Made by a program: the position numbers and the translations under genes. The notes beneath the pieces are model-generated. The model saw nothing but the letters and a program-made list of their open reading frames with translations. It was not told the origin of the DNA and searched no databases. Positions 13,094 to 43,814 of a stretch of 44,005 nucleotides of DNA are shown piece by piece. This DNA comes from Patescibacteria group bacterium (GTDB lineage Bacteria > Patescibacteriota > Patescibacteriia > UBA9934), in the NCBI GenBank assembly GCA_038064675.1, contig JBBTSM010000008.1, positions 167 through 44,171 on the forward strand. Direction: 5' to 3'. The stretch's first letter is position 1. Each line of letters begins with the position of its first letter.

Positions 13094-13101
13094 ACGAGAC
13101 G

Positions 13102-13122: not shown

Positions 13123-13151
13123 TTAGGACTTCCCCATTTTCAACCCACGTC

Positions 13152-19800: not shown

Positions 19801-21222
19801 ATCAATCTGTTCACGCGTAAGCGATGGAGCGCATTCTCGAAGACCTAACTCCCCCCTCCAATTTTCCACGAGTACGCTCAAAGTTTCGTCACGGATTTTC
19901 TCAAATGCCTGCTTCCGTCTTTCGCCGCGCAATAGTCGGGCATCGAGTACTTGCATTTCCGCATACACAATGCTCAACTCAAACGCCGGCAGCTCAGTTT
20001 CCCATCGTTCCTGGCGTTCTGCAGCCTTGGTTTGATTAAGCTCTTGATCTCGAAGATTCAACGCTTCGCGTCGTATTTCGGCCTGCACTCGCATCGTTTC
20101 TCGCAATTCTCGTTGATTCCGTGCAAGCTCTTCCCACGCATTGCCGATATCATTTTGTCGAAAAATTGGTTTTAGTTCCTGATCCCAATTTTTTATATAT
20201 GTACTAAAATCATCTCCAAGAACACGGAAGGCTGTTCCGGCAGCCTCTAACTCTTCCGCCGTTACAATCGGCATTGCAAAAACATCTGCGGCCCGCGTAC
20301 GAAAACTTTCAATCAAACTCGCATATCTTTCCCCGATCTCCTTGCGCGTTGCAAGCGCTTGATCTGCTTTGGCTTCTTTAGCCAAAAATTCCTCTTGCAC
20401 CCTAGTTTCTGCCTCTTTTCCCTTAAGAATTTCTTCACGAAATTTTTCAATCTCGGTATCGAATTGATCAATGCGGCCTTTATAAAAATTCAGCATCTCA
20501 ATTTCGGCCGGTTGAGAACCTCGTTCGGCAACTTGTGCTGCACTTGAATCGTGATTCACTCGAAAGGACGCGAGCTGTCTCTCCAATAATTCTATATTTT
20601 GACGAGCAGTTTCCCAATCACCTTGTCTTATCATCCTTCTTAGCGCCTTCAATATGCTCGTCGTACCTTCAAATAACTTTAGAATCGGTCTTCGCGCCTC
20701 TTCCAAAAGTTTCGCATTATGTTCAGCAATCAAACGATCATCTTCTTCGGTTCCTTCCCCGCGGGCAATGCGCTCATCGGCCTCGCGAGCACGCCGATCC
20801 GCATCCTCCCGTGTCTGCATCGCCACAAGATCTCGCTCTTTCTGCTCTTTAAGGACCGCTTCCCTTTGCACGGCACGCTCTTGAGCACGGATACCCGCAG
20901 CACTCGATCCAGCAAGCAATGCTTTTGTAGCATCGAACTCCCGACGAACTGTCTTTAATGCCGCCAAAATCAAACCACTCGCTACATCGCCACCAACAAA
21001 ATCTTTCGCCGCTTTTTCGGCGCTGCGTAAAGCGGCTTCAACACTTTCCACGAGAGCATTGCGCTCCAACCCAAGTGGAAGATTTTTAATTTCACCAAGC
21101 TGAGCATACGACTCGTCTGTCACGGCTCTGATAGTATTCAAAATCCGTTCTCGCTCTGAATTCACCGCGGAATCCGGAGTTCCATCGCCTCCACCAGGAA
21201 TCTTTCCCTTTTTGGTCGCCAT
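16900..21222 (-). CDS. hypothetical 1440-aa protein: long coiled-coil/helical N-terminal two-thirds, Pro/Ala-rich disordered segment, helical C-terminal domain
   Basis: A 4.3-kb uninterrupted ORF with ATG verified at 21220-21222. Composition is Glu/Arg/Ala/Leu-rich and heptad-like. I see no signal peptide, TM helix or enzymatic motif. Confidence 0.85.
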   Translation of the reverse strand: MATKKGKIPGGGDGTPDSAVNSERERILNTIRAVTDESYAQLGEIKNLPLGLERNALVESVEAALRSAEKAAKDFVGGDVASGLILAALKTVRREFDATKALLAGSSAAGIRAQERAVQREAVLKEQKERDLVAMQTREDADRRAREADERIARGEGTEEDDRLIAEHNAKLLEEARRPILKLFEGTTSILKALRRMIRQGDWETARQNIELLERQLASFRVNHDSSAAQVAERGSQPAEIEMLNFYKGRIDQFDTEIEKFREEILKGKEAETRVQEEFLAKEAKADQALATRKEIGERYASLIESFRTRAADVFAMPIVTAEELEAAGTAFRVLGDDFSTYIKNWDQELKPIFRQNDIGNAWEELARNQRELRETMRVQAEIRREALNLRDQELNQTKAAERQERWETELPAFELSIVYAEMQVLDARLLRGERRKQAFEKIRDETLSVLVENWRGELGLRECAPSLTREQIDAGVRTERAAFDGRMRTLEERVKEYIEASETALPARLHEVVHIWRNTLARTHQLWNSDTDIGDRGVFLEEKYGPGEVKEGDAEFVAMVSAEHRMDFDMLAHTEVFRALRRRGREDQRQRAARDREERRSLPQTPQLNFVRLLEEDVFWDVRNARFWKPSISLQNFRRVLRSGKTMSDDELGNFVTDVSIARMAIASLEQARDRLTETEDILLGKRGEAAVEANIDVKDVLRTMKGYFQWKRRERDAWSGAMNAMGSDTSQSDRKQKLHEFFKGYWTVGPKALSGVPSALLRPIGDWANAQTHVRIFGRYIQWVLDENNGIARELSKQGKIPREFFVAIPEEHEERVELSSDDRAAVEHFAVESADVGEEHASDEHQTLEVGSFVAGAEGSLSMFVAEEEGEDEDSPVADASHVRENVPAYSAAGDAPRTPDAAPAPSVEADSAPAAASVSAPAATSAASAPGEGLSEIEQILAGVFPVDPNAPRPLVPVRRNIVLPSAASPESLIDRPRSEVPRPPRPAGTAAPVAPVRFESAPTSRAESAPVRPASAPSNESADPFAGFFGGGAEAPAPAPEARPVPRVEAPRPSSAESVPPVRPVAVDVRPVARPEPVIDSVAPAPARVEIPIEAPVEVPRETHAEDRVASWSRSLRNTVGRIFGGDATVAPAVVETPAARTEFAPTPEISRRTAGGVIGVLGKFFGLKAFADVPQYLPESFGDQNARALLTADILDAMGENAKTLQRAAGDPERIYTANLDVAARLDRAISTATTRDGEPLSNEMKTRLHESVRALTEQYSEQTRKHAVARSRELAGIVEQSVRVLEAPGRRGSPALRLLSKLPFNIGTNLAHGVGDFRKRFETAVSGGGDTGLVARVATVFRETWEEAMQGIRANGSLGGRVMNTAEAVAMIGSAYGYTAAVTGLEQVLSNLRSLTGSERDEMARLAAEGRLNVQEAMDGVLRRAERAMKRAA

Positions 21223-26123: not shown

Positions 26124-26200
26124 TGGTTGCGGGGGCCGGATTTGAACCGGCGACCTTCGGGTTATGAGCCCGACGAGCTGCCTGGCTGCTCTACCCCGCG
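26124..26200 (-). tRNA. initiator tRNA-Met (CAU) with encoded CCA
   Basis: The reverse complement reads CGCGGGGTAGAGCAGCCAGGCAGCTCGTCGGGCTCATAACCCGAAGGTCGCCGGTTCAAATCCGGCCCCCGCAACCA. It shows a C1-A72 mismatch, three G-C pairs closing the anticodon stem, anticodon CAT, and a GGTTCAAATCC T-arm. It is near-identical to E. coli tRNA-fMet. Confidence 0.97.
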
Positions 26201-26282: not shown

Positions 26283-26642
26283 CTACAGGGATACGGATTT
26301 ACGGATCGCAACAAGAGAAAAGTAAATCTTTTCAGTCATACGATCAAGAACGAGAATATCATCACAACCTTCAAGATAACTTAAAGATTTGGCAATCTTG
26401 AGGCACGCGTCGACCTCAACGAGGGATCCGATAGAGATGTTCAGAAAACGAGCATATTCTTTTGGACTTTTGCGAGCGCTTCCTTCGGCGAGATTGAGAA
26501 GGATAGATGTTGCAGCCCGCCGAATCTGTGACGTAAGTCCATAACCTTCTTCTCGAGGAAAACTTTGTGAAATTCGATAAATGCCTTGAATACATTGATG
26601 GATAATAGGAACGATCCTTAAGTCTTCGTAGTGAAATTTCAT
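26283..26642 (-). CDS. four-helix-bundle protein (23S rRNA intervening-sequence protein family)
   Basis: Family-typical sequence: FPREEGYGLTSQIRRAATSILLNLAEGSARKSPKEYARFLNISIGSLVEVDACL. Start placed at ATG 26642, giving 119 aa. Visibly low GC: one sampled 60-nt line was 35%. Confidence 0.8.
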   Translation of the reverse strand: MKFHYEDLRIVPIIHQCIQGIYRISQSFPREEGYGLTSQIRRAATSILLNLAEGSARKSPKEYARFLNISIGSLVEVDACLKIAKSLSYLEGCDDILVLDRMTEKIYFSLVAIRKSVSL

Positions 26643-26726
26643 AATAACCGTTTTAAACGTTTTAACCGTCATCGAAAACGGCGGCGATGTTTCCATCCCC
26701 GCCGCTCGTTCGTCGTTCGTTGTCCC

Positions 26727-32874: not shown

Positions 32875-33043
32875 CTTAATCTCTTCCAAAGCCTATAGAT
32901 GAGGCCATTTTTCAAGCAACTTATCCACTTTTTCACTCTTTTCCTTTACTTTCTCCAATTTTCTGCTATTATCACCATGCAAGGTGCTAACCAGCACGTG
33001 CTCAACTTACGGTTCTAGGCGGTAATACCCGCCGGAGGTTCAC

Positions 33044-33754
33044 ATGTTCCTTTTCCTCATCGCGATCATCGCCTGCGCCGACGTCTCCGAAAACGGGAAC
33101 AATGGCGGCTGCGTCGAGAACTGCGGCACGGTCGATCCGGCTTCCGAAGCCGAACTCGTCGTGACCGCAAGCTTCCTCGGCGTGGCCGAGAATAGCGACG
33201 TGGTGATCGACAACGAGATTGCTGGCAGCACCGGCGAAACGATCACGATCTCCGATGGGATTCCCACGGAAGTCGAGGTCGGGATCCTCGACGGTCCTAC
33301 CACCACGGACGGAATTCCCCTCCACATGCTTGGTCCCTCGTGGAACGAGACCGTGTGGGAAGGATCCTCCGTGGTCGCGCCGAAGCAGACCGTGACCGGA
33401 AACCTCGCCGAACCCCAGACTGTCACCGCCGGATTCAACCTCTGGCGCCCCGACGAGTACTGGACGTGCGATGAGGTTCGGTCGTGGGAAGACGGAGTAC
33501 ACCCCGGAACGCCTGCGATGACAGCCTACACCGGTGGAAGTTCCTTCCACATGCCGGGTGTCGGCGTCATGGTCATCGATGGCGTCGAGCTCTCGATCGA
33601 AGATCACACGAGCGGCGAGTTCACCTCGCCGATCACCGCAACCGTCGTCGCAGTTCAAGACGAGGCCGGCGAGTTCTACGTCACCTCGACGTGCTTCACG
33701 AGCGACGGGAACGGCAACAAGGTCGATGCGGACGGCAACATCGTCTCCGAGTAG
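33044..33754 (+). CDS. putative secreted lipoprotein (236 aa), high-GC foreign-looking gene
   Basis: Signal peptide with a lipobox-like MFLFLIAIIAC-AD. Acidic Thr/Gly/Val-rich mature part. A GGAGG sequence sits 7 nt upstream of the ATG, and its own terminator follows. Third codon positions are strongly GC-rich. The opposite-strand 264-aa ORF is Arg/Gly/Asp-rich antisense noise. Confidence 0.7.
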   Translation: MFLFLIAIIACADVSENGNNGGCVENCGTVDPASEAELVVTASFLGVAENSDVVIDNEIAGSTGETITISDGIPTEVEVGILDGPTTTDGIPLHMLGPSWNETVWEGSSVVAPKQTVTGNLAEPQTVTAGFNLWRPDEYWTCDEVRSWEDGVHPGTPAMTAYTGGSSFHMPGVGVMVIDGVELSIEDHTSGEFTSPITATVVAVQDEAGEFYVTSTCFTSDGNGNKVDADGNIVSE

Positions 33755-33783
33755 ACCCACCGCAAGGAGAGCGGTGAACACGA

Positions 33784-33818
33784 GCGGCGGACCCATTGGG
33801 CCCGCCGTTCTTCGTTTC
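33784..33818 (+). terminator. intrinsic terminator after the lipoprotein gene
   Basis: GC-rich stem GCGGCGGACCC / GGGCCCGCCG with one mismatch and a 3-nt loop, followed by TTCTTCGTTTC. Confidence 0.6.
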
Positions 33819-36800
33819 TATGGAGTTACAGTGATTGTACCATCGTAATAAACCCATGGATCAGTGGCTCCAGTGTAATCGCCTCCTGGATAATTCGTGT
33901 AATCACATTCATTTGAGTCTTCTGTGCTCCCCCAAGATGAACCGGAGTTAAAACATGACGCCGTTCCATCATCATTTGTTGTAGCAATCGTCGAATCGCA
34001 CGTGCCACTACAGAATCCCCAGTTATCGAGCACCTGTACGCGAGGGCGGAATGTACATGATTCTCCTCCATCTTGAGTACACGGCGTGTTGTCGTAAATG
34101 CCGTCGCCGTCGGTGTCAGCACAGACGGTGATAACTTCCGTGGTATCACAGGTATAGATGTGGCTGTAGCTGAAATAATTTGGATCGCAGCTATCTGTGT
34201 TCATGCCCCAGGCGTAATCCGAATCCGTTACTGGCTTTTCACAAATCGACGTTTCTTTTCCGTCTTCCAATCCTCGATGATTTTTATAGAAGTTATCTCC
34301 TGTTTCTGATCCCTTTGCGCCCGAATCGTCGCCCCAATCAATGATAACTCGACGAAGCGGAAGCTGGTTCTTATCTGCAGCTGCAAAGAACTTCAGGTAT
34401 GCCCGATAGAATGATTCGCTCGAAACATCACCCTCATTCTGATCATTCATCGTTAAACCGTGTGTTTGATCTTCTTCACATTCATCGTTATAACAATTAT
34501 CCACGTCTACTGCCCAAACTGATGGAGGTTTTCCATTCTCAGCACGAATGTCCCAACCCGCACTTGTGTTATTGTCATTGCTTTGCGCGTCACTCATATA
34601 TGCACCGGATGTTGGCGCCTCTCGAAGCGAGAGTGAGCCGCCATATGTACTCGTTGTGTCAAAAACACCGTCGTCGTATTTTGACCAATCTAAACGTGTC
34701 GCGAACACCTCTTCGAGCAATCCATCATGGATATTTTCTGTTATTCCGTCCGCAACCCGACCAGCGGAACTCGAATCAACACCAAAGAATGAAAATGATC
34801 CGCTCGTTGCGCCGTTTGCCCAATCCACATATCCAGAAACGTCATAGTACAAGCGCGATTCTGGATCGGAGTCGTACGATGACACTACAGTAGAAAGGTT
34901 TGAGGTTGAGTATCCACTTTCAGAACACACGGCTTCTCCAGTTGCACTATCAATTTCTGGAATGACGAAACTACTCAATCCTGTACCAGAGTCAGCCTCA
35001 CACTGTGCAAATGATGTTGGGCGAGCATCGCCATAATAGTCATTTTCTATGGACTTCATTGCACCAAGAGGCACCGGCAAGGTATCAACACCATCAAGAG
35101 TATATGTGAATTTGTTCTCATCAGGAACGTAGCCTGACGTGTCCGCTTTCGAAACATCCGGCCGCAATGTCATGATGGAGTTTTCGTTCAATAATCGATC
35201 CGTCCATGGTGCGCCAATATCACCATTCAAATCGCTTGTTGCAGTTTTCACCGCCTCTCCACAGCCAAGATAATATCGAGGTTCTGCAAAGTCTAAGTTA
35301 TAGAATCCTTTATTATCAAGGAAGCCGTCAGCGATTCGCAAAGAATCTTGCGGGAATTCGTACCCTGTATATACCGCTTCAGATGTTCCAAGCATTGAGC
35401 CGGTCATGTCCGACCAATATGCTGGACCGGAAGACGATGCCGACGTTGGAATATTTGGATATTCAAATCGGTACACTTCGCGGCCCACTGAGACACACCC
35501 TTTTCGCAGTGCGATTTCCTCCGCAAATGTATCGTAATCCGCAATATAATACAGATCCGTTGTAGACCTTATCTCTGTGGAATCCGATCCAGAACTCTGG
35601 AGATCTGAAACATACACCGTGAGCGGATTTGTAGTCGTTTTGTCGTAATTTGTTGGCGGGGTGCACACACCACTCGAATCTGATGTCGTCGCTCCTTCCG
35701 GAACACAAATAAGTGGACAACTCGGTTCTCCCTGATTACACGCATCAGCATATGTACCGAGCCCATCTGATTCCTCTATTCCATCCGCATTATTCCAATC
35801 GGACATCGGAGCACCAATAACAGCATAGTATCCAACAGGACAGTACACGTCTTGATGAAGGCACAGATCTGAAACGCGAGGATCCTTTGGCGTCGTTGCT
35901 GCAGCCAAATCGTCTGCTGCGGTTCCAGATCCATTCGATATTTCCACGCAAGCTATTGAGAATTTTGTTGGATTATCCTCATCTGAAGCATCGCTCGTTG
36001 TCAGTTCATCGGCAATGTGACTCGTATACACATTCTCATACAACTTTGGATCATCACAATAATACGTATCCCCGGTATACCCAGCGCCTATGTACTTTGC
36101 GTACAAATCTGTTGATCCTTGGAGCTGATCCACCGGCAGCCATGTAACACACGCATTCAGATCACGATCCCCAAGGATGTTCGTAGATGTGTCGCGCTCC
36201 AAACAATAGCCGTCCATACCAAGCACGTCGTCGGTTTTTGTTGGATAATCGCACGTTCCTCCGCCATCAGCACACGTTGAATCTGCATTAATAATAGCGT
36301 AACGCCAATCGCTAGAACCGGAATCGTAATAGTACGTTGAGCTTGAACTGCAGAAATTTCCATCGAACGTTCCGCCATTACAAACCCCAATTGCTCCATT
36401 ATCAAATGGGAACATCGTGTCAGAACCAAAGTACTTCAAAGTTCCACCGTACGTTACCTTCTTGTAAGAACACGAACAGTCTTCCCCTTCGATGCACGTT
36501 TTTGCGTTATCAAAATTCTGCACATACGTTTCCGGCATTGAACTGTACGTCGGGTTATCTGCGTCGCTGTCATTCACATCTTTCCATGTACTCACCACAC
36601 TCGTTGGGAATGGGCTGTTGATTTCTGGGTATCCACGGCAGCTCTTTGCTTCCGCAGTTCCCGTATCGAATGTGCCACCAGTTGGTGTAAGAACGCATTC
36701 GTCGCGCATACAGGTTCCCACTTTGTAATTTACGGATGTGTAGAGCGTCTCATCGAGGGCACACACGCTGGAATCTTTGCCATTATAGTCATCGATAGCC

Positions 36801-39800
36801 GCTCCACTCCCCGCGGTTGCGCAGTAGCCGCCTAGGCAGGCTTCGCCGGTGGAACAATCCGCGCTCGAAGCACAAAGCGTGGTGGAAACGGCGTAACAGG
36901 TTCCAATCAAGCACGATCCTCCAGTTACGCCACAGCTATCGCTTGCGGCACATGGTGAGCCAGTGTTTTCGCAGTAACCAATTGAACAATTTTCACCGTA
37001 CGCAAGGTCGCAACTTCCTGCGATGAATGCCAAACGATAATCTGAATCGTCCGCGTTCGGACACAATGCGTATTCCCCTGCGGTTCCGCCACACTGTTCA
37101 TCGTCAGTACATTCCAGTCCGTTATACGAATCGCCTGGGCCGGTGTTACAGGTTCCGGAAGGCGCTGCAACATTCTTTTGCGTAAGCTGATCCACCGGAA
37201 GCGATCCTGGAATTGCGTAGCCCGAATAATCGTCACCATACCAGGAAACGTCGCGCTGAGAATACGTATCCGCATCAAGAACAACTGCCGCGTCGTCTAC
37301 TTTCCATGCCGAACAGAACGACGCGTTGCCGCTCGTGGAATATTCCGTACACAACCCGATGTCGCCACAAATCGTCTTGTAGCTATTGGTGCGCTCATCC
37401 CATGTGGTCTGTGCGTCGGAACAGCTCAACCATTCGCTACATTCGCGATCTCGGTTCACTTTGAGCACCATATTCGCATCGTTTTCCAAACGCGTTGTCG
37501 TTGTGGTGCCGTATCGTGACGCGCAGAATCCATTCACGGTTTCTCCAGATTCACTGGTGAGCGGTCGGCAATCGGAATCTTCGTAACATGATCCGTCAAA
37601 GATGTACGCGTCTCCGGTGGCGCCGTTAATGTCGTAATATGCATCCGCGTCGTACCAACAACGGTTTGCGCACAAATCAACCGTATCCCCCGATGGAGTA
37701 AGGATTGTGGACGTATTGCTACAGTCGATAGGATCCGCCATGCCATTTGGTGCACCACCAAACAACGTATCAGCGTGCTTGCTTGCCACGTATGATGCGC
37801 TCATGTTGTACGTCTTCGACGGTTCCGATGTGTCGTTAAACAATCCACAGCCTTCTTTCTGGCTCACCTGACCATTACACTTCTGACTATCTGGCAGGCT
37901 ATTGTCTTCAAGCGAATCGTTATTCAGGTAGTAATAACTCGTGCCGTCAGCGTCGCCGTACACCTGATCCGTTGAAAGATCGGTGAGATCCTGGAATTCC
38001 GAACAGCTGTCGTATTTCGTGAGACACGTTCCCACCCAGTTGTTGTAATCGTCATCCCCGTTCTTCCAAATACCCGACGTGTCGCCGCCAATAACGTATT
38101 GTGGATTGCCGTCGGCATCCGTTGCACACAGTTCATCTTCACCCGTCTTGAACCAACCGCTGTACGTGACGTTATCAATCGTAACGTCTGTGCGGTATTC
38201 ACACGTTTGATCCTGTGGTGTTTTGAAGTAATGTACCGAACTGTTCTTGTCAGTAAACGCATCACAATACAATTCTTTCTCAGAACACAATGTTGCAGCG
38301 TAATCCGCCGGAGTATTCATGAGATACGTTGCGGTCCAGCTCGCCACCGCGGTGTGGTCCTGGCTAAACACCGGCAACCCAACTTCCATACATCCGGCAA
38401 CGTCCGACGTACACTCCACATTGCTATTCACTACGAGAAACACATCTTTATCCGCTGGAGAAACAACGGTGGATGCCGCATACGACAAATGCGGCGAACG
38501 CGAGCCGCTCGCAGTGAATGTCGATGGCGGCAGGTACCAATCAAGGTTGAATTCACAGCTGGTTGACCCAACACCAATCGTACAAAGGAACTGGCTCGAT
38601 GTGTCGTATGCCGTCAATGCGCTATTCAACGCGTAGTAACACGACGTTGCCGAGAGCGCCGGTTCACCGTCGATAGTGGAACAGGAGCCGCCGTACACCG
38701 CTGCGGTCGTTGCGTCGGATTCTTGTGTCATGAAGTAGGAAGAGCAGCCAACCTGCGATTCTTCACACAATGAGCTAAAGCTCTTCAAGTCCGAAACATC
38801 ACCGTTCTGATCCGTGTATTCCTGACATCCAAGCATATACTGCGGCGACGATGTGCCTTCCACGGTTTCGTCACATTCTGCCGGAGTCACCCAAGAATCT
38901 TTGATGACGTCGATGTTATCTTCACCCTCACGAAGCACAACATTATCAATGAAGAACGTATCCGACCCAGATCCTGGCGTGAAGACGAGCGCCGTAGATC
39001 CGTCGCCAAAATTTGGATGGTCTGTGCCGTTCATATCGAGCGGACCGTATGTGTATTCATTCCAATCTGTTGCAAGATCGATAGAAGATTCGAATGCCGT
39101 TCCAATAACACCGGCACCGCTCACAACCGTTCCAAAACCCACCGACACCATTCCCGTGCCCTTTGCCCAGAAGGAAATGGTGTACGTTTTATCTGCAAAC
39201 AATTCCTGGCTCAATGTTCCACAGGAGTATTCGCCGTTCACAATGGTGCAGCTTCCGCCAAGCGCGCCGGTGGTGCTCGCGCAGCCTTCGCCGGTTGTTG
39301 CTTCTGCGCACGCTGTTGAGCTTCCGCCAACGTATGTCCACACCGATTCACCATCAGACGACAACGAATGACCGTCTGTCGCGATTGATTCGTTTGAAAG
39401 TGTGACGTCTGATGCGCTCGCCGCGTCCCAGTTGGTCAAATCACCGTTCTCAAAATATTCCGTAAAGGCCTGACGGCTATTGCGGCTACGTCCACCGGTG
39501 TATTCACGACATCCGGATTCTTTTTCTGAACATGTTGCGCTCTCGTCAGCATAGCCGTAATAACGGCATTCTGACGTGGCTGAATCGAAGAATCCTCCGG
39601 ACTCTTGGCAATTCGTCTTACCATCATCAACACCGTTTGCATCATTGTCATCACCAAATCCAACGAGATCGGTCTTTCGATACGTCACACAGGAGTTATT
39701 GACCGTAACAGTCTTCGACCACAATCGATAGTGAATAATACCGCTCGCGTCGTAAAATTCGCGGCAATCTGGGTTGGTGATGGTGTCGTCGTGTTGGTCG

Positions 39801-42800
39801 CACGATGCGCTGTCGGTTTCCAATTTGCCGGCTGTAGTTTCGTCGTCGTTACATGCAATGCCCGTTGCGGTTGCAGACCAATTCGTACATGGCGCTGACT
39901 GTGGTGCGTCGTCTGTCTCGCCGCTATCAGCATACGTCATTGGAGCATACACAGGATCGATATCCGATTCGAGCAAGTTCCAGGTCTTAATCTGATATCC
40001 AGCGGTATCTGATCCTTCCCACGTGTAAAAAACTTCTGCGCCGTCGGTAGCAATTGTATTCAAATCCGCCTGAGCCGTCGTAAGACAGGCGCGAAGATTC
40101 GTAAAGTACGATGGCGCCTCCGAAGAGATGTCGGTGAATTCATCACACCCAACTGCCTGAGCCGAACACTCATCTGCGGAATCTGGAATGAAATACACAG
40201 GGAAATCACCGTCTGGTTCGTATCTCGTCGCTTCCTGTTTAAATGTGTCGTATCCCACGCAAGATTCTGGGCATGAATCCAGGCTGTCCGTGATACCCGC
40301 AACAGAAGGATCGCCGTTCGATGGTGTGTACAAGGAGCATCCCACATCGCTTTCCGAACACACGGTTGCGTAATTCGCACAATCGGCAGGATCCGTCGCA
40401 CTATCGCCCGTACATCCAAGATACGACGGCGCAACTTTCACGTAGGCAAGGTCGAGTACGCTACCGCTGTACCCTTCGTGATAGCTCGATGCAGAGGATT
40501 CTTGTTCGAGCTGAATTTGGTCGTACCACACGTCGCCGCCAGTCAAAAAGATCGTTCCGGTGATTTCCGCAGACGTATCCGCAAGCGCAGGAACGGTGAA
40601 AGTACACGTATAGCGTTGGTAGTCCGTATCTGTTGGCGTTTCCGTAATTGCAATCGTGGCGTTTGAGAATCCCAATGCACAGTCGCCAGAAAGCGCATAT
40701 CCAGTAAGGTCGATCGTGGTTCCATCGTTTGAAGCCAGCGAAAGCCATCCATCCGTCGCCGCACCGGTTCCAGTACCCTGACGTGCATACAATGAATATG
40801 TGTATTCCGCACCCTGAGTGAGAACAATTCCCGGCTGAATGTACGCCGATGATGTGGATACTGGGTTTACCGCCGCAACGCCGCCAAGTTTTACTGAAGC
40901 ATCAATGCTATACGTCATTCCGGTTCCGGAAATGATCCAGCCATCTGGAACGCCATCGTTGTCTGCGTCGTCTTCAAACGAAGAATTCGCGACCATGTTT
41001 AACGTCGTACCGCCCGCACGAGACACTAATTCACGACATCCCGCATCAGATGCCTGACAGTCCGCAACTTCCGACGTGAAGTAGATGCGATTCTTATACA
41101 TATCGTTCGCAGCCTCGGCGGTAGCGAATGCCGGAGCCGCATCCGCGGTGTAATCTGGGAAATCGAATGTTCCCGTACCGTCGTCTACTTTCTGTGTGGC
41201 ATACCACAAACACCCCGCAGAATCGGCAGTACAATTGTCGGAATTTGTGGTGTTTGAAAGATAATCAAAGTTGTCGCCATTCGGATCTTCGTATGTCGTA
41301 CACGATGCGTAGTAGTCTGGACACTCTTCCCCGCGGAACCGCCACACATTTTCTTCACGAACGCAGTAGCCGTAGCCGCCAGTACAGTTTCCGTCGCCGT
41401 CTTCGTCAATACAACTTGGCATATCTACACAAACATCCATGCGCTCATCGGTAACTGATGCCACAAGCTGTTCGCCGTATACCAATGCCTTACATTGCGT
41501 TTCTGGGTACTTCAACACCCAGTTTGGATCGATAAGATGGCACCATGGGTGGTTGTCGTCGAGCTCACCTTGATCGCTACAGTCATTAAATGCATCGACC
41601 ACTTCACCAAGCGTCACTGGACTGTTCTCGCTATTCGCATTGGATTCTGCCGCAATTTCCCAACTCGTTGAAATAATACGTGCTTTACGAAGCTTTACGA
41701 GGTTCCCATGACAGTATCCGTAGGTATAACAGAATGGGTCTTGGTCTCGCGCGGTATCCGACGACGGAATGAGCGGCCACGAACTGTTGAGCAAACCTTC
41801 TTCAATCGCCTCAGCAATGGTAAGCGAAGATCCCGAATCTGCACGACTGACCGCGGTAACGAACGACGAATCCGCAACACAGTTGTACAACGATTTTCCC
41901 GCGGTTGGACACGCGCTGAATTCCTCGAGCTGACTGTAATTTTCTACAGAAAGCGGAGTTGCAGTAAGGAAACTGCGGAACGATTCACGAGCGTCTTCAG
42001 CGTTGCTCGATCCAACGCCCTCAACATTAAATGGATCGATCGCGGTCTGGTCGAGGCCGCTAAACAAGCCGTCGTACAGTTTCTCCGTGACCTTCGAGAG
42101 CAATGTATTTGTAAACACGGAACCCGCGTGCTTTGCAATTTGCAGCAACACTTCCTTGTCGCCGAGCGCCTGAACAGCAATTTGGTTTCGGATGCTGTCG
42201 GACGCCATCATCGTTGCATCCAAACGCTTCTGAATAAGTTCCGCAGGAGTCTCAACCTTTCCGGTAATGAAATTGGTTTTATCTTTAAAGAACCCGCCAA
42301 ACATTTCTCTCAGTGTACTATTCGCAGCATCGGTCTGCGCTTTATTGAGCACATCGCTATACAACTGAATTCCAACGGAGAGATCGTTAGACTTTGGGTT
42401 GTACATGTCGGCAAGCTTTGTGGTGATGAGCGAGTTCTTCCCAAATGGATCACTCGCCATTGTGGAAACATCGCTAATAAACCCACCCCAGTTGTCCTTC
42501 ACCGCGCTCCATTCACATGCTGGCTTTGGCCTATCAAATACGCCCTGAATACCAAATTTGAATGCGAGGGTTACACCAGACGCATTTGGTTCACACAAAC
42601 TGAAATTTCCTAAAATACCTGTGTCATCAATAGCACCGAGCGCCTCACCAGCCACAGAGGCACCATAGTCAGCGAAGTAGTCACCCGCCGTACGATTATC
42701 AAACAATGGATCATCACCGTTGCCGCCCGCGGCAATGTACACCGCGGCGTCGTAAGCCAACCGGTCCGTTGCATACGTCACGGTGTTGATCAATGCCGTG

Positions 42801-43003
42801 GAGACGGAAGCGACAAGCGCGGTTTGACCAAGGTACTTCAGTGCACTCAAAATCCATTCCGTGATACGCGGAGCGTCAGCATCAGTGCTCACCGGAATAA
42901 CGGCGTATGCGGTTTTTGGCGCAAGAATCGCCGCAGAAGAAAACGTAAAGACGGCGAGCATGAGCAACGCCGTGGCACCAAATTTTCGCAAGCGGTCCTT
43001 CAT
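33818..43003 (-). CDS. giant (3061 aa) Cys-rich secreted or surface protein with jelly-roll (CBM4_9-like) and C-terminal PKD-like segments
   Basis: A 9.2-kb uninterrupted ORF. The ATG at 43003 gives MKDRLRKFGATALLMLAVFTFSSAAILAPKTAYA, which is signal-like. It contains well over 100 Cys residues, CBM-like stretches (NSSFEDDADNDGVPDGW; FENGDLTNWDA), a Ca-binding-like CADTDGDGIYDN, and a PKD-like IIDWGDDSG...YSHIYTC. TAG stop at 33818. Confidence 0.9.
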   Translation of the reverse strand: MKDRLRKFGATALLMLAVFTFSSAAILAPKTAYAVIPVSTDADAPRITEWILSALKYLGQTALVASVSTALINTVTYATDRLAYDAAVYIAAGGNGDDPLFDNRTAGDYFADYGASVAGEALGAIDDTGILGNFSLCEPNASGVTLAFKFGIQGVFDRPKPACEWSAVKDNWGGFISDVSTMASDPFGKNSLITTKLADMYNPKSNDLSVGIQLYSDVLNKAQTDAANSTLREMFGGFFKDKTNFITGKVETPAELIQKRLDATMMASDSIRNQIAVQALGDKEVLLQIAKHAGSVFTNTLLSKVTEKLYDGLFSGLDQTAIDPFNVEGVGSSNAEDARESFRSFLTATPLSVENYSQLEEFSACPTAGKSLYNCVADSSFVTAVSRADSGSSLTIAEAIEEGLLNSSWPLIPSSDTARDQDPFCYTYGYCHGNLVKLRKARIISTSWEIAAESNANSENSPVTLGEVVDAFNDCSDQGELDDNHPWCHLIDPNWVLKYPETQCKALVYGEQLVASVTDERMDVCVDMPSCIDEDGDGNCTGGYGYCVREENVWRFRGEECPDYYASCTTYEDPNGDNFDYLSNTTNSDNCTADSAGCLWYATQKVDDGTGTFDFPDYTADAAPAFATAEAANDMYKNRIYFTSEVADCQASDAGCRELVSRAGGTTLNMVANSSFEDDADNDGVPDGWIISGTGMTYSIDASVKLGGVAAVNPVSTSSAYIQPGIVLTQGAEYTYSLYARQGTGTGAATDGWLSLASNDGTTIDLTGYALSGDCALGFSNATIAITETPTDTDYQRYTCTFTVPALADTSAEITGTIFLTGGDVWYDQIQLEQESSASSYHEGYSGSVLDLAYVKVAPSYLGCTGDSATDPADCANYATVCSESDVGCSLYTPSNGDPSVAGITDSLDSCPESCVGYDTFKQEATRYEPDGDFPVYFIPDSADECSAQAVGCDEFTDISSEAPSYFTNLRACLTTAQADLNTIATDGAEVFYTWEGSDTAGYQIKTWNLLESDIDPVYAPMTYADSGETDDAPQSAPCTNWSATATGIACNDDETTAGKLETDSASCDQHDDTITNPDCREFYDASGIIHYRLWSKTVTVNNSCVTYRKTDLVGFGDDNDANGVDDGKTNCQESGGFFDSATSECRYYGYADESATCSEKESGCREYTGGRSRNSRQAFTEYFENGDLTNWDAASASDVTLSNESIATDGHSLSSDGESVWTYVGGSSTACAEATTGEGCASTTGALGGSCTIVNGEYSCGTLSQELFADKTYTISFWAKGTGMVSVGFGTVVSGAGVIGTAFESSIDLATDWNEYTYGPLDMNGTDHPNFGDGSTALVFTPGSGSDTFFIDNVVLREGEDNIDVIKDSWVTPAECDETVEGTSSPQYMLGCQEYTDQNGDVSDLKSFSSLCEESQVGCSSYFMTQESDATTAAVYGGSCSTIDGEPALSATSCYYALNSALTAYDTSSQFLCTIGVGSTSCEFNLDWYLPPSTFTASGSRSPHLSYAASTVVSPADKDVFLVVNSNVECTSDVAGCMEVGLPVFSQDHTAVASWTATYLMNTPADYAATLCSEKELYCDAFTDKNSSVHYFKTPQDQTCEYRTDVTIDNVTYSGWFKTGEDELCATDADGNPQYVIGGDTSGIWKNGDDDYNNWVGTCLTKYDSCSEFQDLTDLSTDQVYGDADGTSYYYLNNDSLEDNSLPDSQKCNGQVSQKEGCGLFNDTSEPSKTYNMSASYVASKHADTLFGGAPNGMADPIDCSNTSTILTPSGDTVDLCANRCWYDADAYYDINGATGDAYIFDGSCYEDSDCRPLTSESGETVNGFCASRYGTTTTTRLENDANMVLKVNRDRECSEWLSCSDAQTTWDERTNSYKTICGDIGLCTEYSTSGNASFCSAWKVDDAAVVLDADTYSQRDVSWYGDDYSGYAIPGSLPVDQLTQKNVAAPSGTCNTGPGDSYNGLECTDDEQCGGTAGEYALCPNADDSDYRLAFIAGSCDLAYGENCSIGYCENTGSPCAASDSCGVTGGSCLIGTCYAVSTTLCASSADCSTGEACLGGYCATAGSGAAIDDYNGKDSSVCALDETLYTSVNYKVGTCMRDECVLTPTGGTFDTGTAEAKSCRGYPEINSPFPTSVVSTWKDVNDSDADNPTYSSMPETYVQNFDNAKTCIEGEDCSCSYKKVTYGGTLKYFGSDTMFPFDNGAIGVCNGGTFDGNFCSSSSTYYYDSGSSDWRYAIINADSTCADGGGTCDYPTKTDDVLGMDGYCLERDTSTNILGDRDLNACVTWLPVDQLQGSTDLYAKYIGAGYTGDTYYCDDPKLYENVYTSHIADELTTSDASDEDNPTKFSIACVEISNGSGTAADDLAAATTPKDPRVSDLCLHQDVYCPVGYYAVIGAPMSDWNNADGIEESDGLGTYADACNQGEPSCPLICVPEGATTSDSSGVCTPPTNYDKTTTNPLTVYVSDLQSSGSDSTEIRSTTDLYYIADYDTFAEEIALRKGCVSVGREVYRFEYPNIPTSASSSGPAYWSDMTGSMLGTSEAVYTGYEFPQDSLRIADGFLDNKGFYNLDFAEPRYYLGCGEAVKTATSDLNGDIGAPWTDRLLNENSIMTLRPDVSKADTSGYVPDENKFTYTLDGVDTLPVPLGAMKSIENDYYGDARPTSFAQCEADSGTGLSSFVIPEIDSATGEAVCSESGYSTSNLSTVVSSYDSDPESRLYYDVSGYVDWANGATSGSFSFFGVDSSSAGRVADGITENIHDGLLEEVFATRLDWSKYDDGVFDTTSTYGGSLSLREAPTSGAYMSDAQSNDNNTSAGWDIRAENGKPPSVWAVDVDNCYNDECEEDQTHGLTMNDQNEGDVSSESFYRAYLKFFAAADKNQLPLRRVIIDWGDDSGAKGSETGDNFYKNHRGLEDGKETSICEKPVTDSDYAWGMNTDSCDPNYFSYSHIYTCDTTEVITVCADTDGDGIYDNTPCTQDGGESCTFRPRVQVLDNWGFCSGTCDSTIATTNDDGTASCFNSGSSWGSTEDSNECDYTNYPGGDYTGATDPWVYYDGTITVTP

Positions 43004-43009
43004 ACGCAA

Positions 43010-43738
43010 TTACTGGGTGGTTTGGGTGGAATCCGCAGGAGGCGGCGCCGTTGCACCGGAATCCGCTGCTGCCGCCGCGTCGGCGCTTGCCGCATCGTCA
43101 ACCTGCATTTGTGTGATTGCCTGCGACAACGCCGCGCGAAGGTCGTCGTCAGACAGCGCGTTGATGGCTGTTGCGTCGCCACCAGCCTGAATAAGCAACG
43201 TCCGAATTTGATCGGTCGTCATGGATGACAATGTTGCTTCAATATCCACCGCCGTTGCAGGGGCCTCAGGTTCTGGCGTAGAACCCGCTTCGGCAGCAAT
43301 CTTCTCCGCAAAGGTTCCCTGAAGTGTTGCCGGATTCACCGTGTCTGCGACAGCTGCAGCGCATGGCATATTTGCTGCGCAGTTTGGATCGTCGCCGTGA
43401 GCGACTTCTGCCTTATCTTCAGCTCCATCACTATCGGAATCCTTCAAATACGGACTGGTTTTATAAATGTACAGCTCACTGTAGTCGTCTAAACCATCTG
43501 TATCGGTATCTTGTTTCTTCAATGTTTCCATCTCCTGTTGCTGCTTTTCATCGCCCGTTAAAAACTTTGGTCCAACGTATGAAACGACAAATGGAGAAGC
43601 AATGTGCTTCCACAAGAAAAACACCCCAAAAATAAGTGCGAGCGACCCAAAGCCGACCACCATACCCAATCCCGTTTTTTGTTCACGGTTCAGGATGGCT
43701 TTTTTTCGCGTGATGATAATTCTTTCTCCCTCCGCCAT
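43010..43738 (-). CDS. membrane-anchored protein with thrombospondin-type-3-like acidic Ca-binding repeats
   Basis: TM helix GLGMVVGFGSLALIFGVFFLW, followed by DTDTDGLDDYSE...DSDSDGAEDKAE. Its stop lies 6 nt before the giant gene's ATG. Start placed at ATG 43738. Confidence 0.8.
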   Translation of the reverse strand: MAEGERIIITRKKAILNREQKTGLGMVVGFGSLALIFGVFFLWKHIASPFVVSYVGPKFLTGDEKQQQEMETLKKQDTDTDGLDDYSELYIYKTSPYLKDSDSDGAEDKAEVAHGDDPNCAANMPCAAAVADTVNPATLQGTFAEKIAAEAGSTPEPEAPATAVDIEATLSSMTTDQIRTLLIQAGGDATAINALSDDDLRAALSQAITQMQVDDAASADAAAAADSGATAPPPADSTQTTQ

Positions 43739-43814
43739 ACGCAATATCGTATGACAAGTATATCACTGAGAGGGGGTGAATACCGATCTTGTATACACAG
43801 GAACACGGAGGTGT

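What the first reader, a model, noticed from the sequence alone, without database searches (positions are those of the whole stretch)
33818..43738. TSP3-repeat anchor protein plus a 3061-aa Cys-rich giant secreted protein as one operon
The two genes are 6 nt apart. The 242-aa protein is a bitopic membrane protein with acidic DxDxDG-type repeats. The giant has these parts:
- a signal-like N-terminus;
- a Cys-free region of about 350 aa;
- a very Cys-rich body of more than 2000 aa that includes two jelly-roll/CBM4_9-like segments and an extremely Cys-dense stretch (CENTGSPCAASDSCGVTGGSCLIGTC...);
- Ca-binding-like and PKD-like segments at the C-terminus.

It accounts for about 21% of the window. 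Giant surface proteins in small-genome epibionts are suspected host-attachment factors. I can assign no family to most of its length.
Basis: partly seen in the sequence, partly recalled or inferred. Interest (0 to 1): 0.7.

Follow-up and report, generated by a model that had tools for sequence, protein, structure and literature searches.

The report
Conserved giant disulfide-rich surface protein pair
An uncultured Patescibacteria (Uhrbacteria-type) genome carries a two-gene unit, conserved in hundreds of related species but undescribed, that encodes a small calcium-binding membrane protein and a 3,061-residue secreted protein with about 62 probable disulfide bonds. It most likely forms a cell-surface fibre that binds sugars on another cell.

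Summary
On the minus strand, a 242-aa single-pass membrane protein with two exact DxDxDGxxDxxE calcium-binding repeats ends 6 nt before a 3,061-aa secreted protein.

The giant ORF is real:
- It has no DNA repeats.
- Full-length, collinear homologues of 2,500-3,900 aa occur in over 100 independent assemblies, at least 313 species representatives and about 1,000 clusters at 50% identity. All are Patescibacteria and all are named "hypothetical".

The small gene lies directly upstream in 74 of 74 loci that include upstream DNA; the median gap, measured in 72 of them, is 4 nt.

Of 124 Cys, 118 are more than 90% conserved. Cys are gained and lost in pairs, and no CxxC motif occurs, so they most likely form disulfides.

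Only two CBM4/9-type jelly rolls can be assigned to a family. PKD and EGF similarity is not supported. The C-terminal 1,200 residues have no significant structural relative.

A strongly constrained scaffold (dN/dS 0.01-0.07) carries a hypervariable module at residues 2331-2810. Similarity in that module does not follow scaffold relatedness.

Best reading, at moderate confidence: a membrane-tethered, glycan-binding contact fibre with an exchangeable specificity module. It is a new variant of the large Cys-rich surface proteins already noted in CPR bacteria. Function is untested.

The parts
43010..43738 (-). Small gene (242 aa, stop included): N-in single-pass membrane protein with an acidic ectodomain (pI about 4)
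   Evidence: Homologues lie directly upstream of the giant in 74 of 74 loci with upstream DNA. The family has 132 hits, all Patescibacteria proteins of about 200-350 aa.
43607..43669 (-). Transmembrane helix of the small protein (residues about 24-44)
   Evidence: It is the only hydrophobic peak, with Kyte-Doolittle 2.36. The preceding basic stretch (RKKAILNREQK) suggests an N-in orientation; that orientation is an inference.
43406..43510 (-). Two TSP3-type calcium-binding repeats (DTDTDGLDDYSE at 77-88; DSDSDGAEDKAE at 100-111), followed by a conserved Cys pair (C120, C126)
   Evidence: Searches show the Asp, Gly and Glu positions invariant across 45 homologues. Pfam TSP3_bac matches 29 of 45 homologues. 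The window copy scores E = 0.025.
43103..43243 (-). Conserved C-terminal helical segment of the small protein (residues about 166-212), a candidate docking module
   Evidence: R179, G186 and D197 are conserved. Three homologues give weak CUE/UBA-like hits. The docking role is an inference.
33818..43003 (-). Giant gene (3,061 aa plus stop). The mature product is 3,027 aa, 324 kDa, pI 4.05, with 124 Cys.
42902..43003 (-). Sec signal peptide (residues 1-34, cleavage at AYA|V)
   Evidence: An AxA site is conserved in homologues.
41936..42901 (-). N-terminal all-alpha domain (residues 35-356; 8 long helices; one Cys pair, 137/163). It is family-specific and always N-terminal.
   Evidence: AF2 model (pLDDT 45-70). 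The profile search gave 1,201 hits; nearly all of the 150 listed are giants of 2,500-3,900 aa (the shorter ones look like contig-truncated pieces), with the domain at about residues 40-360. No PDB relative was found. dN/dS is 0.014.
41504..41935 (-). Highly conserved small alpha/beta domain (residues 357-500)
   Evidence: pLDDT 83-93. Mean identity to the query across the 116-homologue alignment is 0.55-0.73. No Pfam hit.
41009..41503 (-). Cys-hairpin region (residues 501-665) with several C-x6-C-x2-[YFLW] motifs and a DEDGDG motif at 533
   Evidence: Low pLDDT.
40469..41008 (-). Jelly roll 1, CBM4/9-type (residues 666-845)
   Evidence: Pfam CBM_4_9 scores 24.4 bits here (cutoff 25.9) and 32.2 bits in homologue P0012. 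pLDDT 82-92. Foldseek top hits are CBM16, 22, 4 and 61, with E about 3e-6 and target-normalised TM 0.5-0.75.
39476..40468 (-). Cys-rich beta region 1 (residues 846-1176). Its start is homologous to the segment after jelly roll 2.
   Evidence: pLDDT 75-94 for residues 946-1166. hhalign of 858-892 against 1387-1423 gives probability 77%.
38954..39475 (-). Jelly roll 2, CBM4/9-type (residues 1177-1350)
   Evidence: A PDB profile hit to CBM4 of laminarinase 1gui, E = 0.002. Pfam CBM_4_9 is above threshold at this position in P0109. Weak homology to jelly roll 1.
37154..38953 (-). Cys-rich region 2 (residues 1351-1950) with further C-x6-C hairpin motifs. The fold was not modelled apart from residues 1862-1950, which came out at low confidence.
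   Evidence: dN/dS is 0.037.
36674..37153 (-). Cys-dense beta-hairpin region (residues 1951-2110; 18 Cys)
   Evidence: pLDDT 76-85 for residues 1991-2111. No EGF-like or other Pfam hit.
36014..36673 (-). Conserved region M (residues 2111-2330). It includes the near-invariant segment 2262-2302, which AF2 cannot place.
34574..36013 (-). Hypervariable, indel-rich module (residues 2331-2810)
   Evidence: It is 31-35% identical to the closest relative, whose N-terminal domain is 94% identical. dN is 0.90 here against 0.03. The best match is the 9th-closest scaffold relative, and only 88 of 213 giants are detectable here.
33821..34573 (-). Conserved C-terminal beta-sandwich domain (residues 2811-3061). 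It has 12 Cys, a C-x-DTDGDG-x6-C loop at 2961-2975 and the terminal motif DPWVYYDGxIxVxP.
   Evidence: pLDDT 82-94. Invariant columns are listed. No significant PDB or BFVD structural match. No PKD hit.

Best explanation
The two genes form a conserved operon that builds a cell-surface complex in Uhrbacteria-type Patescibacteria.

**Proposed mechanism.**
1. The 324-kDa giant is exported by Sec and its signal peptide is removed.
2. Outside the cell it is locked into a rigid, very acidic structure by about 62 disulfide bonds. These are presumably made by the MdbA/VKOR-type oxidoreductases that are common in CPR bacteria.
3. The giant has no membrane or cell-wall anchor of its own. It is held at the membrane by the co-translated small single-pass protein, whose ectodomain carries two calcium-binding TSP3 repeats and a helical tail. 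The contact is probably through the giant's family-specific N-terminal helical domain.
4. The distal part presents two CBM4/9-type lectin modules and, near the C-terminus, an exchangeable hypervariable module. Together these recognise glycans or other surface structures on a partner (host) cell or substrate.

**What is shown.** The operon and its conservation; secretion signals and topology; paired Cys behaviour; the CBM fold; a strongly constrained scaffold with a discordant hypervariable module.

**What is inferred.** Tethering by the small protein; calcium dependence; glycan binding; the role in cell-cell contact.
For: **Operon.**
- The gap is 6 nt here.
- The small gene is directly upstream in 74 of 74 loci with upstream DNA. 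The median gap is 4 nt in the 72 of them measured.
- The same order holds in a subfamily member only 28% identical.
- The neighbourhood is housekeeping: ksgA upstream, and a Pro/His-type class II aminoacyl-tRNA synthetase gene, M23 peptidase, parAB and relA further down.

**Secretion and topology.**
- The giant has a cleavable AxA signal and no other hydrophobic segment. It has no LPXTG and no RTX repeats.
- The small protein has one transmembrane helix.

**Disulfides.**
- Of 124 Cys, 118 are more than 90% conserved over 116 homologues.
- Cys appear and disappear in pairs or quartets, and 98 of 116 homologues have an even count.
- There is no CxxC motif, but there are 17 C-x6-C motifs.
- CPR bacteria are enriched in MdbA-like thiol-disulfide oxidoreductases, often next to VKOR (bioRxiv 10.1101/335083).

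**Calcium.**
- The DxDxDGxxDxxE repeats are invariant, and TSP3_bac matches 29 of 45 small-protein homologues.
- The giant has three DxDxDG motifs, 470 Asp+Glu against 154 Lys+Arg (a net excess of 316 acidic residues), and pI 4.05.

**Lectin modules.** CBM_4_9 HMM hits and Foldseek hits to CBM16, 22, 4 and 61. There is also a near-threshold match to the phage/GTA head-spike fibre domain.

**Scaffold and variable module.**
- dN/dS is 0.014-0.065 for the N-terminal domain, the core and the Cys regions, and 0.11-0.14 for the CBMs. dN in residues 2331-2810 is 0.90, about 30 times higher than in the N-terminal domain.
- The closest scaffold relatives (87-92% identical) are only about 25% identical in the module, while the 9th-closest relative is 45% identical there.

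**Contact between the two proteins.** Small-protein distances track the giant's N-terminal domain best: r = 0.79, and partial r = 0.40 after controlling for phylogeny. The partial r is near zero for the core domain, jelly roll 2 and the C-terminal domain. This is weak evidence.

**Precedent.** Large extracellular Cys-rich proteins in Peribacteria and giant surface proteins in Vampirococcus have been proposed as attachment factors (PMC4736985; PMC8080830).
Against: - No experiment, proteomic detection or imaging exists for this family. All names are "hypothetical" and no paper was found.
- The near-fixed length, the apparent single copy (one locus per assembly in the loci listed) and the housekeeping neighbourhood fit a general envelope component as well as a host-specific adhesin.
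- CBM-like jelly rolls can be purely structural. Ligand-binding residues could not be assessed.
- The interaction between the small protein and the giant was not modelled. The mirror-tree signal is weak and is confounded by similar evolutionary rates.
- Synonymous sites are saturated even against the nearest relative. Positive selection, relaxed constraint and recombination in the variable module therefore cannot be separated.
- About half of each AF2 model is below pLDDT 70.
- No host is known for Uhrbacteria.
Confidence: 0.45

Rival explanations
1. The pair is a general envelope or S-layer-like structural component. The giant would be a housekeeping scaffold of the Patescibacteria cell envelope (spacer, wall organiser or sheath), tethered by the small protein, with no role in partner recognition. 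The variable module would simply be a surface-exposed loop region under phage or predator pressure.
For: - The gene appears single-copy (one locus per assembly), has near-fixed length and sits in a housekeeping neighbourhood in every locus examined.
- Purifying selection is extremely strong over about 2,300 residues.
- The protein is very acidic and carries calcium-binding motifs, as in many S-layer proteins.
- The family is broad: about 1,000 clusters at 50% identity.
Against: - S-layer proteins are usually Cys-poor and 40-200 kDa.
- No SLH, CWB2 or other wall-binding module was found.
- Two lectin-type modules and a phylogenetically discordant variable module point to ligand recognition.
- A 9.2-kb gene is costly for a lattice subunit in a genome of about 1 Mb.
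Confidence: 0.25
2. The giant is a secreted polysaccharide-processing protein or a scaffold for such enzymes. One of the conserved but unassigned domains (357-500 or 2111-2330) would be a new catalytic module. The CBMs would target it to a polymer, such as host wall or capsule or environmental glucan, to obtain nutrients.
For: - CBM4, 9, 16 and 22 modules are normally appended to glycoside hydrolases (Foldseek hits; established CAZy knowledge).
- Several domains have invariant Asp, Glu, Arg, Trp and Tyr residues. Examples are Q421, D422, R439, R442, W448 and E449, and E2269 and D2271.
- CPR bacteria depend on externally derived sugars.
Against: - No catalytic family was detected by Pfam, NCBIfam or PDB profiles.
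- Foldseek on the 37-1176 model listed only CBMs in its 50 rows. That search was dominated by the jelly roll, so it does not exclude a catalytic fold in 357-500.
- Foldseek on the 1862-3061 model, which includes 2111-2330, found nothing significant.
- More than 3,000 residues and 62 disulfides are far beyond what an enzyme needs.
- The obligatory membrane partner and the hypervariable module are not explained.
Confidence: 0.1
3. The giant is a contact-dependent polymorphic toxin or effector: a conserved delivery scaffold with a variable toxic module, with the neighbouring genes acting as helper or immunity genes.
For: - A conserved large N-terminal part with a variable module near the C-terminus that is discordant with the scaffold phylogeny.
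- A fast-evolving small neighbour gene downstream.
Against: - The variable module is internal and is followed by a conserved 250-aa C-terminal domain.
- There are no Rhs/YD, CdiA, PT-VENN or toxin-domain hits and only three isolated YDxxG matches.
- The downstream gene is convergent, looks like a lipoprotein and is not detectably conserved in most loci.
- The gene sits in a housekeeping region, not on a mobile island, and GC content is uniform.
Confidence: 0.05
4. The giant ORF is an assembly or annotation artefact, such as a chimeric contig, collapsed repeats or fused genes.
For: The window is metagenome-like sequence, and very long ORFs are sometimes artefacts.
Against: - The ORF has no DNA repeats.
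- Collinear homologues of 2,900-3,300 aa occur in more than 100 independent assemblies, including a chromosome-level record.
- Cys and Trp columns are invariant along the whole length.
- dN/dS is far below 1.
Confidence: 0.01

Closest known systems
Large extracellular cysteine-rich proteins of CPR Peribacteria (Anantharaman et al. 2016, PeerJ, PMC4736985)
   Same: Both occur in a CPR host. Both have a signal peptide, a predicted extracellular location and a high Cys content, have little or no functional annotation, and have been proposed as attachment or rigidity factors.
   Different: The Peribacteria proteins average about 1,650 aa with about 7% Cys, occur as multi-gene clusters and vary between strains. 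This one is a single gene of about 3,000 aa with 4.1% Cys, near-fixed length and an obligatory TSP3 membrane partner, under strong purifying selection except for one module. Sequence relatedness to the Peribacteria proteins was not tested.
Giant surface proteins of episymbiotic or predatory CPR (e.g. Vampirococcus lugosii, Moreira et al. 2021, PMC8080830)
   Same: Both are among the longest proteins of a tiny genome, are predicted to be at the membrane or surface, and have been proposed to mediate recognition of and attachment to a host.
   Different: The Vampirococcus proteins carry recognisable interaction domains (WD40, PKD, integrin, fibronectin, DUF11). Here about 90% of the length has no family, and PKD is not detected.
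Repeat-built giant bacterial adhesins (RTX adhesins such as LapA, SiiE and MpIBP; Bap; Ebh) - from general knowledge
   Same: All are giant, very acidic, calcium-binding exoproteins with terminal ligand-binding (often sugar-binding) modules, held at the cell surface by a separate or N-terminal retention element.
   Different: Those adhesins are tandem arrays of Ig-like repeats with variable copy number and are almost free of Cys. The RTX adhesins among them are exported by type I secretion. This protein has no DNA or protein tandem repeats, a Sec signal, no RTX nonapeptides and 62 probable disulfides.
CBM4/CBM9/CBM16/CBM22 carbohydrate-binding modules
   Same: The two jelly rolls match in HMM searches and in fold.
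   Different: They are not attached to any recognisable glycoside hydrolase. Ligand specificity is unknown, and each carries an inserted DxDxDG-type loop at its start.
Bacterial thrombospondin type-3 repeat proteins (Pfam PF18884; e.g. Myxococcus MtsD cohesion protein)
   Same: The small protein has two canonical DxDxDGxxDxxE calcium-binding repeats. It gives family-level TSP3_bac hits and a weak match to MtsD.
   Different: It has only two repeats in a 242-aa single-pass membrane protein, which is always encoded directly upstream of the giant.
Phage receptor-binding fibres and GTA head spikes
   Same: The logic is the same: a conserved shaft carries lectin-like jelly rolls and an exchangeable specificity region. 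There is a near-threshold NCBIfam GTA_spike_fiber match at residues 687-841.
   Different: The gene is chromosomal, in a housekeeping context and appears single-copy (one locus per assembly). The C-terminal half gives no significant BFVD structural match. There is no diversity-generating retroelement (DGR) and no phage genes nearby.

Membership tests
CBM_4_9 (Pfam PF02018) / CBM4-9-16-22 jelly-roll fold | HMM match at or above the gathering score | tested here: inconclusive
   The window copy scores 24.4 bits against a cutoff of 25.9 for residues 669-813. Orthologues pass: P0012 scores 32.2 bits at 665-807 and P0109 scores 29.1 bits at 1289-1340. Precomputed PF02018 hits are recorded for most homologues.
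CBM_4_9 (Pfam PF02018) / CBM4-9-16-22 jelly-roll fold | Beta-sandwich jelly-roll fold superposable on solved CBMs | tested here: met
   The AF2 model has pLDDT 82-92 for residues 666-836. All 50 top Foldseek hits are this CBM-type jelly-roll fold: mostly CBM16, 22, 4 and 61, plus CBM-like domains of Cry toxins, Stig cyclases and a phage tailspike. E is about 3e-6 to 9e-5 and target-normalised TM is up to 0.75. The second jelly roll matches CBM4 1gui by profile at E = 0.002; it was not modelled.
CBM_4_9 (Pfam PF02018) / CBM4-9-16-22 jelly-roll fold | Carbohydrate binding through aromatic residues in a cleft | not testable with these tools
   No model coordinates or ligand assays were available.
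Bacterial TSP3 repeat (Pfam PF18884) | DxDxDGxxDxxE calcium-binding repeat and an HMM match | tested here: met
   There are two exact repeats, at residues 77 and 100, with all acidic and Gly positions invariant in 45 homologues. TSP3_bac matches 29 of 45 homologues, best E = 4.3e-9. The window copy alone is below threshold (E = 0.025, 14.9 bits). Calcium binding itself was not tested.
PKD domain | HMM or structural match to the PKD or Ig-like PKD fold | tested here: not met
   No Pfam hit at E <= 10 on residues 2811-3061. No PDB profile hit at E <= 10. The best Foldseek PDB hit has E = 0.1 and is a generic Ig-like domain at probability below 0.2. Only a loose WGDG...HxY...DNWG motif resemblance remains.
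EGF-like / Cys-knot repeats | HMM match and the characteristic 6-Cys spacing | tested here: not met
   No Pfam hit on residues 1951-2110 apart from DUF7107 at E = 0.22. No PDB profile hit.
RTX / type I-secreted repeat adhesins | Tandem GGxGxD nonapeptides, a C-terminal T1SS signal and tandem Ig-like repeats | tested here: not met
   There is one isolated GGNGDD, no tandem repeats and an N-terminal Sec signal.
Sortase-anchored (LPXTG) or SLH-anchored wall proteins | C-terminal LPXTG plus a hydrophobic tail, or SLH/CWB2 domains | tested here: not met
   No LPXTG, no C-terminal hydrophobic segment and no SLH or CWB hits.
Rhs/YD or CdiA-type polymorphic toxins | YD-repeat shell or FHA repeats, a C-terminal variable toxin after a demarcating motif, and a downstream immunity gene | tested here: not met
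   No Pfam hits. There are three isolated YDxxG matches. The variable module is internal. The downstream gene is convergent.
Diversity-generating retroelement (DGR) target | A template/variable repeat pair plus a reverse transcriptase nearby | tested here: not met
   The window has no direct or inverted repeat of 45 nt or more that involves the gene. No RT domain was found among the ORFs scanned. Only an isolated PF05635 four-helix-bundle protein is present, at 26283-26696.
Uncharacterised "Uhrbacteria giant" family (defined here) | N-terminal helical domain, conserved core, two CBM jelly rolls, more than 100 conserved Cys, the C-terminal DPWVYYDG motif and a TSP3 partner gene upstream | tested here: met

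The most novel reading that the evidence does not exclude
The pair could be the lineage-defining contact organelle of Uhrbacteria-type Patescibacteria. It would be a calcium-dependent spike or fibre of about 324 kDa, held rigid by disulfides and built largely from previously unseen folds. Its cassette-like hypervariable module (residues 2331-2810) would set which partner cell the bacterium can attach to. That would make it a sequence-readable determinant of host range for a large uncultured clade.
Probability: 0.2. Interest if true: 0.8.

Novelty: new variant of a known kind. Interest (0 to 1): 0.6.

Why it matters
How most CPR/Patescibacteria physically engage other cells is unknown outside the cultured Saccharibacteria. 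This family has several properties that make it a useful lead:
- It is one of the largest genes of a genome of about 1 Mb.
- It is conserved with its membrane partner across hundreds of species.
- It is essentially unannotated, and about half of it has no structural relative.

Its layout separates an invariant scaffold from lectin modules and an exchangeable variable module. That gives concrete targets: the partner interaction, the disulfide pattern, glycan binding, and typing of the variable module against co-occurring hosts. It also gives a marker for linking Uhrbacteria lineages to partners in metagenomes.

The family also shows that a bacterium thought to be anaerobic and metabolically minimal invests in an exoprotein with about 62 disulfides. 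This implies a capable extracytoplasmic oxidative-folding system.

Tried and rejected
1. **DGR-driven diversification of the variable module.** The window has no template/variable-type repeat and no RT. The PF05635/bAvd-like gene at 26283-26696 stands alone.
2. **PKD, EGF, RTX, LPXTG, SLH and Rhs assignments.** All failed.
3. **Metal-cluster reading of the Cys.** There is no CxxC motif, and Cys are gained and lost in pairs.
4. **The same-strand ORF 33002-33796 as a third operon gene.** Rejected. Only the opposite-strand ORF 33044-33754 is conserved at the protein level. Even that gene is detectable in only 7 loci.
5. **Paralogues of the giant in the window.** None were found among the other large or unannotated ORFs tested.
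6. **Searching the 5.8-billion-protein set with the variable module alone.** No hit reached E <= 0.001, not even the protein itself, so the search was uninformative.
7. **Foldseek on whole multi-domain models.** The N-terminal model was dominated by CBM hits, so the helical domain and the 357-500 core could not be searched separately. The C-terminal model gave nothing significant in PDB or BFVD.
8. **dN/dS test for positive selection.** Synonymous sites are saturated even against the nearest relative.
9. **Promoter and terminator scans around the operon.** Nothing above background was found on the coding strand.
10. **Structure prediction with full-length or locus-derived alignments.** Sub-sequence alignments of 40-41 sequences were used instead, which limits model quality.
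11. **Literature searches.** Seven were run. They found general statements on CPR giant or Cys-rich proteins but nothing on this family.

Full report
**1. What is in the sequence**

Both genes lie on the minus strand.
- The small gene starts at ATG 43738 and stops at TAA 43012-43010 (242 aa).
- Six nucleotides later, ATG 43003 opens a 3,061-codon ORF that ends at 33820-33818.
- The giant occupies 20.9% of the window.
- It contains no tandem or dispersed DNA repeats, so repeat collapse cannot have created it.
- Upstream is the 3' end of ksgA/rsmA, 77% identical to that of the nearest relative.
- Downstream, the conserved gene is a convergent, lipoprotein-like ORF on the plus strand (33044-33754). 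The same-strand ORF is not conserved.
- The transcription unit is therefore the two genes. Co-transcription with ksgA, 76 nt upstream, cannot be excluded.

**2. Organism and context**

The window encodes a T4SS-like cluster (VirB4/TraG, PrgI), topA, dprA, parAB, relA, a class II aminoacyl-tRNA synthetase, a Zn ABC transporter and several unannotated large ORFs.

Every homologue of the two genes that carries a name is from "Patescibacteria group", "Candidatus Uhrbacteria", one "Falkowbacteria" or "Parcubacteria group". Many bulk-submitted MAGs are titled "uncultured Gammaproteobacteria", which I take to be mislabelling because they encode the same pair.

**3. The family**

- The first search returned at least 250 hits. 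The best 120 are almost all full-length proteins of 2,900-3,400 aa that align end to end at 34-72% identity.
- A pattern scan of one genome per GTDB species found relatives in 313 species, which is a lower bound.
- A profile of the N-terminal helical domain alone, searched against 1.84 billion cluster representatives, gave 1,201 hits at E <= 1e-3, 1,009 at <= 1e-10 and 223 at <= 1e-30.
- Nearly all of the 150 hits listed are giants of 2,500-3,900 aa with the domain at residues about 40-360. The shorter ones look like contig-truncated pieces.
- The new long members (over 2,400 aa) align with the query over 1,900-3,060 residues at 26-39% identity and have 88-174 Cys.
- All are "hypothetical protein". 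I found no paper on the family.

**4. The gene pair**

- A homologue of the small protein lies immediately upstream of the giant in all 74 loci that contain upstream DNA. The eight loci without a hit are truncated at the giant's N-terminus.
- The stop-to-start distance has a median of 4 nt in the 72 of those loci where it was measured.
- The order also holds for a member 28% identical (3,739 aa), where the small protein is 33% identical.
- This is as strong as comparative evidence for a functional pair gets without experiments.

**5. The small protein**

- It has one transmembrane helix.
- It has two exact DxDxDGxxDxxE repeats whose acidic, Gly and Glu positions are invariant in 45 homologues.
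- These are followed by a conserved Cys pair and a conserved helical tail.
- Pfam TSP3_bac matches 29 of 45 homologues, best E = 4e-9. The window copy alone is below threshold.

**6. Anatomy of the giant**

| Residues | Feature | Evidence |
|---|---|---|
| 1-34 | Cleavable Sec signal (AYA\|V); AxA conserved in the family | |
| 35-356 | All-alpha domain of about eight long helices; one Cys pair; pLDDT 45-70 | |
| 357-500 | Highly conserved alpha/beta domain; pLDDT 83-93 | |
| 501-665 | Cys hairpins; poorly modelled | |
| 666-845 | Jelly roll 1 | |
| 846-1176 | Cys-rich beta region; pLDDT 75-94 for 946-1166 | |
| 1177-1350 | Jelly roll 2 | |
| 1351-1950 | Cys-rich region (not modelled, apart from 1862-1950 at low confidence) | |
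| 1951-2110 | Cys-dense beta hairpins; 18 Cys; pLDDT 76-85 for 1991-2111 | |
| 2111-2330 | Conserved region | |
| 2331-2810 | Variable, indel-rich module | |
| 2811-3061 | Conserved beta-sandwich; pLDDT 82-94; ends in DPWVYYDGxIxVxP | |

- The motif C-x6-C-x2-[YFLWV] recurs 10 times between residues 561 and 1667, out of 17 C-x6-C pairs in the protein.
- The jelly roll plus the segment after it appears to have been duplicated once. hhalign gives 81% probability for CBM1 against CBM2 and 77% for 858-892 against 1387-1423.
- The mature protein is 324 kDa with pI 4.05. It has 470 Asp+Glu against 154 Lys+Arg.

**7. What can and cannot be assigned**

- Only the jelly rolls match anything known. The evidence is Pfam CBM_4_9 (just below threshold here, above it in orthologues at both positions), CBM4 of laminarinase by PDB profile, and Foldseek hits to CBM16, 22, 4 and 61.
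- Ten separate segments gave no Pfam hit at E <= 10.
- Profiles of the N-terminal domain and of residues 1862-3061 gave no PDB sequence relative.
- The 1,200-residue C-terminal model has no Foldseek match at E <= 0.001 in PDB or BFVD.
- The C-terminal "Ca-binding-like" element is a single conserved C-x-DxDGDG-x6-C loop.

**8. Cysteines**

- Of 124 Cys, 118 are more than 90% conserved across 116 homologues.
- Variable Cys columns co-occur perfectly in pairs or quartets, for example 1232/1241, 1252/1261, 1861/1879 and a 4-Cys insertion present in 70 sequences.
- 98 of 116 proteins have an even Cys count.
- No CxxC motif is present.
- Together with the extracellular location, this indicates about 62 disulfides rather than metal sites.
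- CPR genomes are enriched in MdbA-like oxidoreductases, often next to VKOR (10.1101/335083), so the machinery plausibly exists. I could not check this genome.

**9. Evolutionary pattern**

- Against the nearest relative (P0002, locus L084), synonymous sites are saturated, with dS at least 1.2.
- Amino-acid identity is nevertheless 94% in the N-terminal domain, 90% in the core and 90% in Cys region 2, giving dN/dS of 0.014-0.065.
- The jelly rolls evolve faster, at 0.11-0.14.
- Identity in residues 2331-2810 is only 31-35% depending on the alignment, with dN = 0.90.
- The module's similarity is also discordant with the scaffold:
  - The two nearest scaffold relatives (87-92% identical) are about 25% identical in the module, no better than remote family members.
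  - The 9th-nearest relative is 45% identical there over 487 residues.
  - Only 88 of 213 giants are detectable by BLASTP in this region.
- This argues for distinct module types exchanged or retained independently of the scaffold.
- No DGR is present.

**10. Mechanistic reading**

Shown:
- a conserved operon;
- a secreted giant without its own anchor, paired with a single-pass membrane partner;
- paired Cys behaviour;
- the lectin fold;
- a constrained scaffold with a discordant variable module.

Inferred:
- The small protein tethers the giant, probably through the N-terminal domain. Mirror-tree r is 0.79 and partial r is 0.40, the highest of all regions and near zero for the C-terminal domain. 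This is weak evidence.
- Calcium rigidifies the complex.
- The distal lectin and variable modules bind surface glycans of a partner cell.

I put this at 0.45.

The main rival, at 0.25, is a general envelope scaffold whose exposed module merely diversifies under phage or predator pressure. Enzyme (0.10), polymorphic toxin (0.05) and artefact (0.01) readings are less likely, for the reasons given under the rival explanations.

**11. Comparison and novelty**

- The general kind is already on record: large, secreted, Cys-rich or giant surface proteins in CPR proposed as attachment factors (PMC4736985; PMC8080830).
- This family differs in several ways:
  - it appears single-copy (one locus per assembly in the loci listed), has near-fixed length and is not built of repeats;
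  - it is obligatorily paired with a TSP3 membrane protein;
  - it is conserved across about 1,000 sequence clusters;
  - it is largely made of folds with no detectable relatives;
  - it has a scaffold-plus-cassette organisation.
- I classify it as a new variant of a known kind, with interest 0.6.

**12. An unexplained detail**

Residues 2262-2302 (LGMDGYCLERD...LPVDQLQGSTDLYAKY) are among the most conserved in the protein, yet AF2 models them at pLDDT about 30. This segment is a candidate intermolecular interface or processing site.

Noticed in passing
window 33044-33754 (+): A convergent lipoprotein-like gene (MFLFLIAIIAC...) lies next to the giant's 3' end. It is conserved at the protein level only on this strand (31% identity to the nearest relative, E = 7.6e-11). 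It also neighbours the giant in L001 and in the distant L083, but is detectable in only 7 loci. It evolves very fast. A sigma-70-like site sits at 32945-32972.
   Followed up: partly
window 33002-33796 (-): A 264-aa ORF on the giant's strand overlaps the gene above. It is not conserved in the nearest relative (E = 0.05) and is probably spurious, although a gene caller chose this strand in locus L084.
   Followed up: yes
window 43001-43010 and 43736-43745 (-): The identical 10-mer ATTGCGTATG spans both start codons. These are the only two exact copies in the window. With one mismatch allowed there are 9 matches against 2.7 expected. No Shine-Dalgarno sequence is evident upstream of either gene.
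   Followed up: partly
window 26283-26696 (-) and tRNA-Met 26124-26200 (-): A PF05635 "23S rRNA intervening sequence" four-helix-bundle protein (weak bAvd-like hit) sits beside tRNA-Met. It is absent from the syntenic region of L001. No reverse transcriptase or template/variable repeat is nearby.
   Followed up: partly
window 5444-13318 (-): A type IV secretion-like cluster: a VirB4/TraG P-loop ATPase (5444-7363), PrgI (8053-8505), and unannotated ORFs of 227, 521 and 1,076 aa with no Pfam match.
   Followed up: no
window 16900-21222 (-): A second very large ORF (1,440 aa) with a single Cys, no Pfam match and no similarity to the giant.
   Followed up: partly
window 14311-14355 / 14396-14440: A 45-nt inverted repeat (73% complementary, 40-nt spacer) lies in the intergenic region between dprA and topA.
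   Followed up: no
giant residues 2262-2302 (window about 36098-36220, -): A near-invariant segment that AlphaFold models at pLDDT about 30. It may be an interface or a processing site.
   Followed up: no
loci L006, L007, L010, L012, L019 and others: Many public MAGs titled "uncultured Gammaproteobacteria bacterium" encode this Patescibacteria-specific gene pair. Their record titles appear to be bulk mislabels.
   Followed up: no
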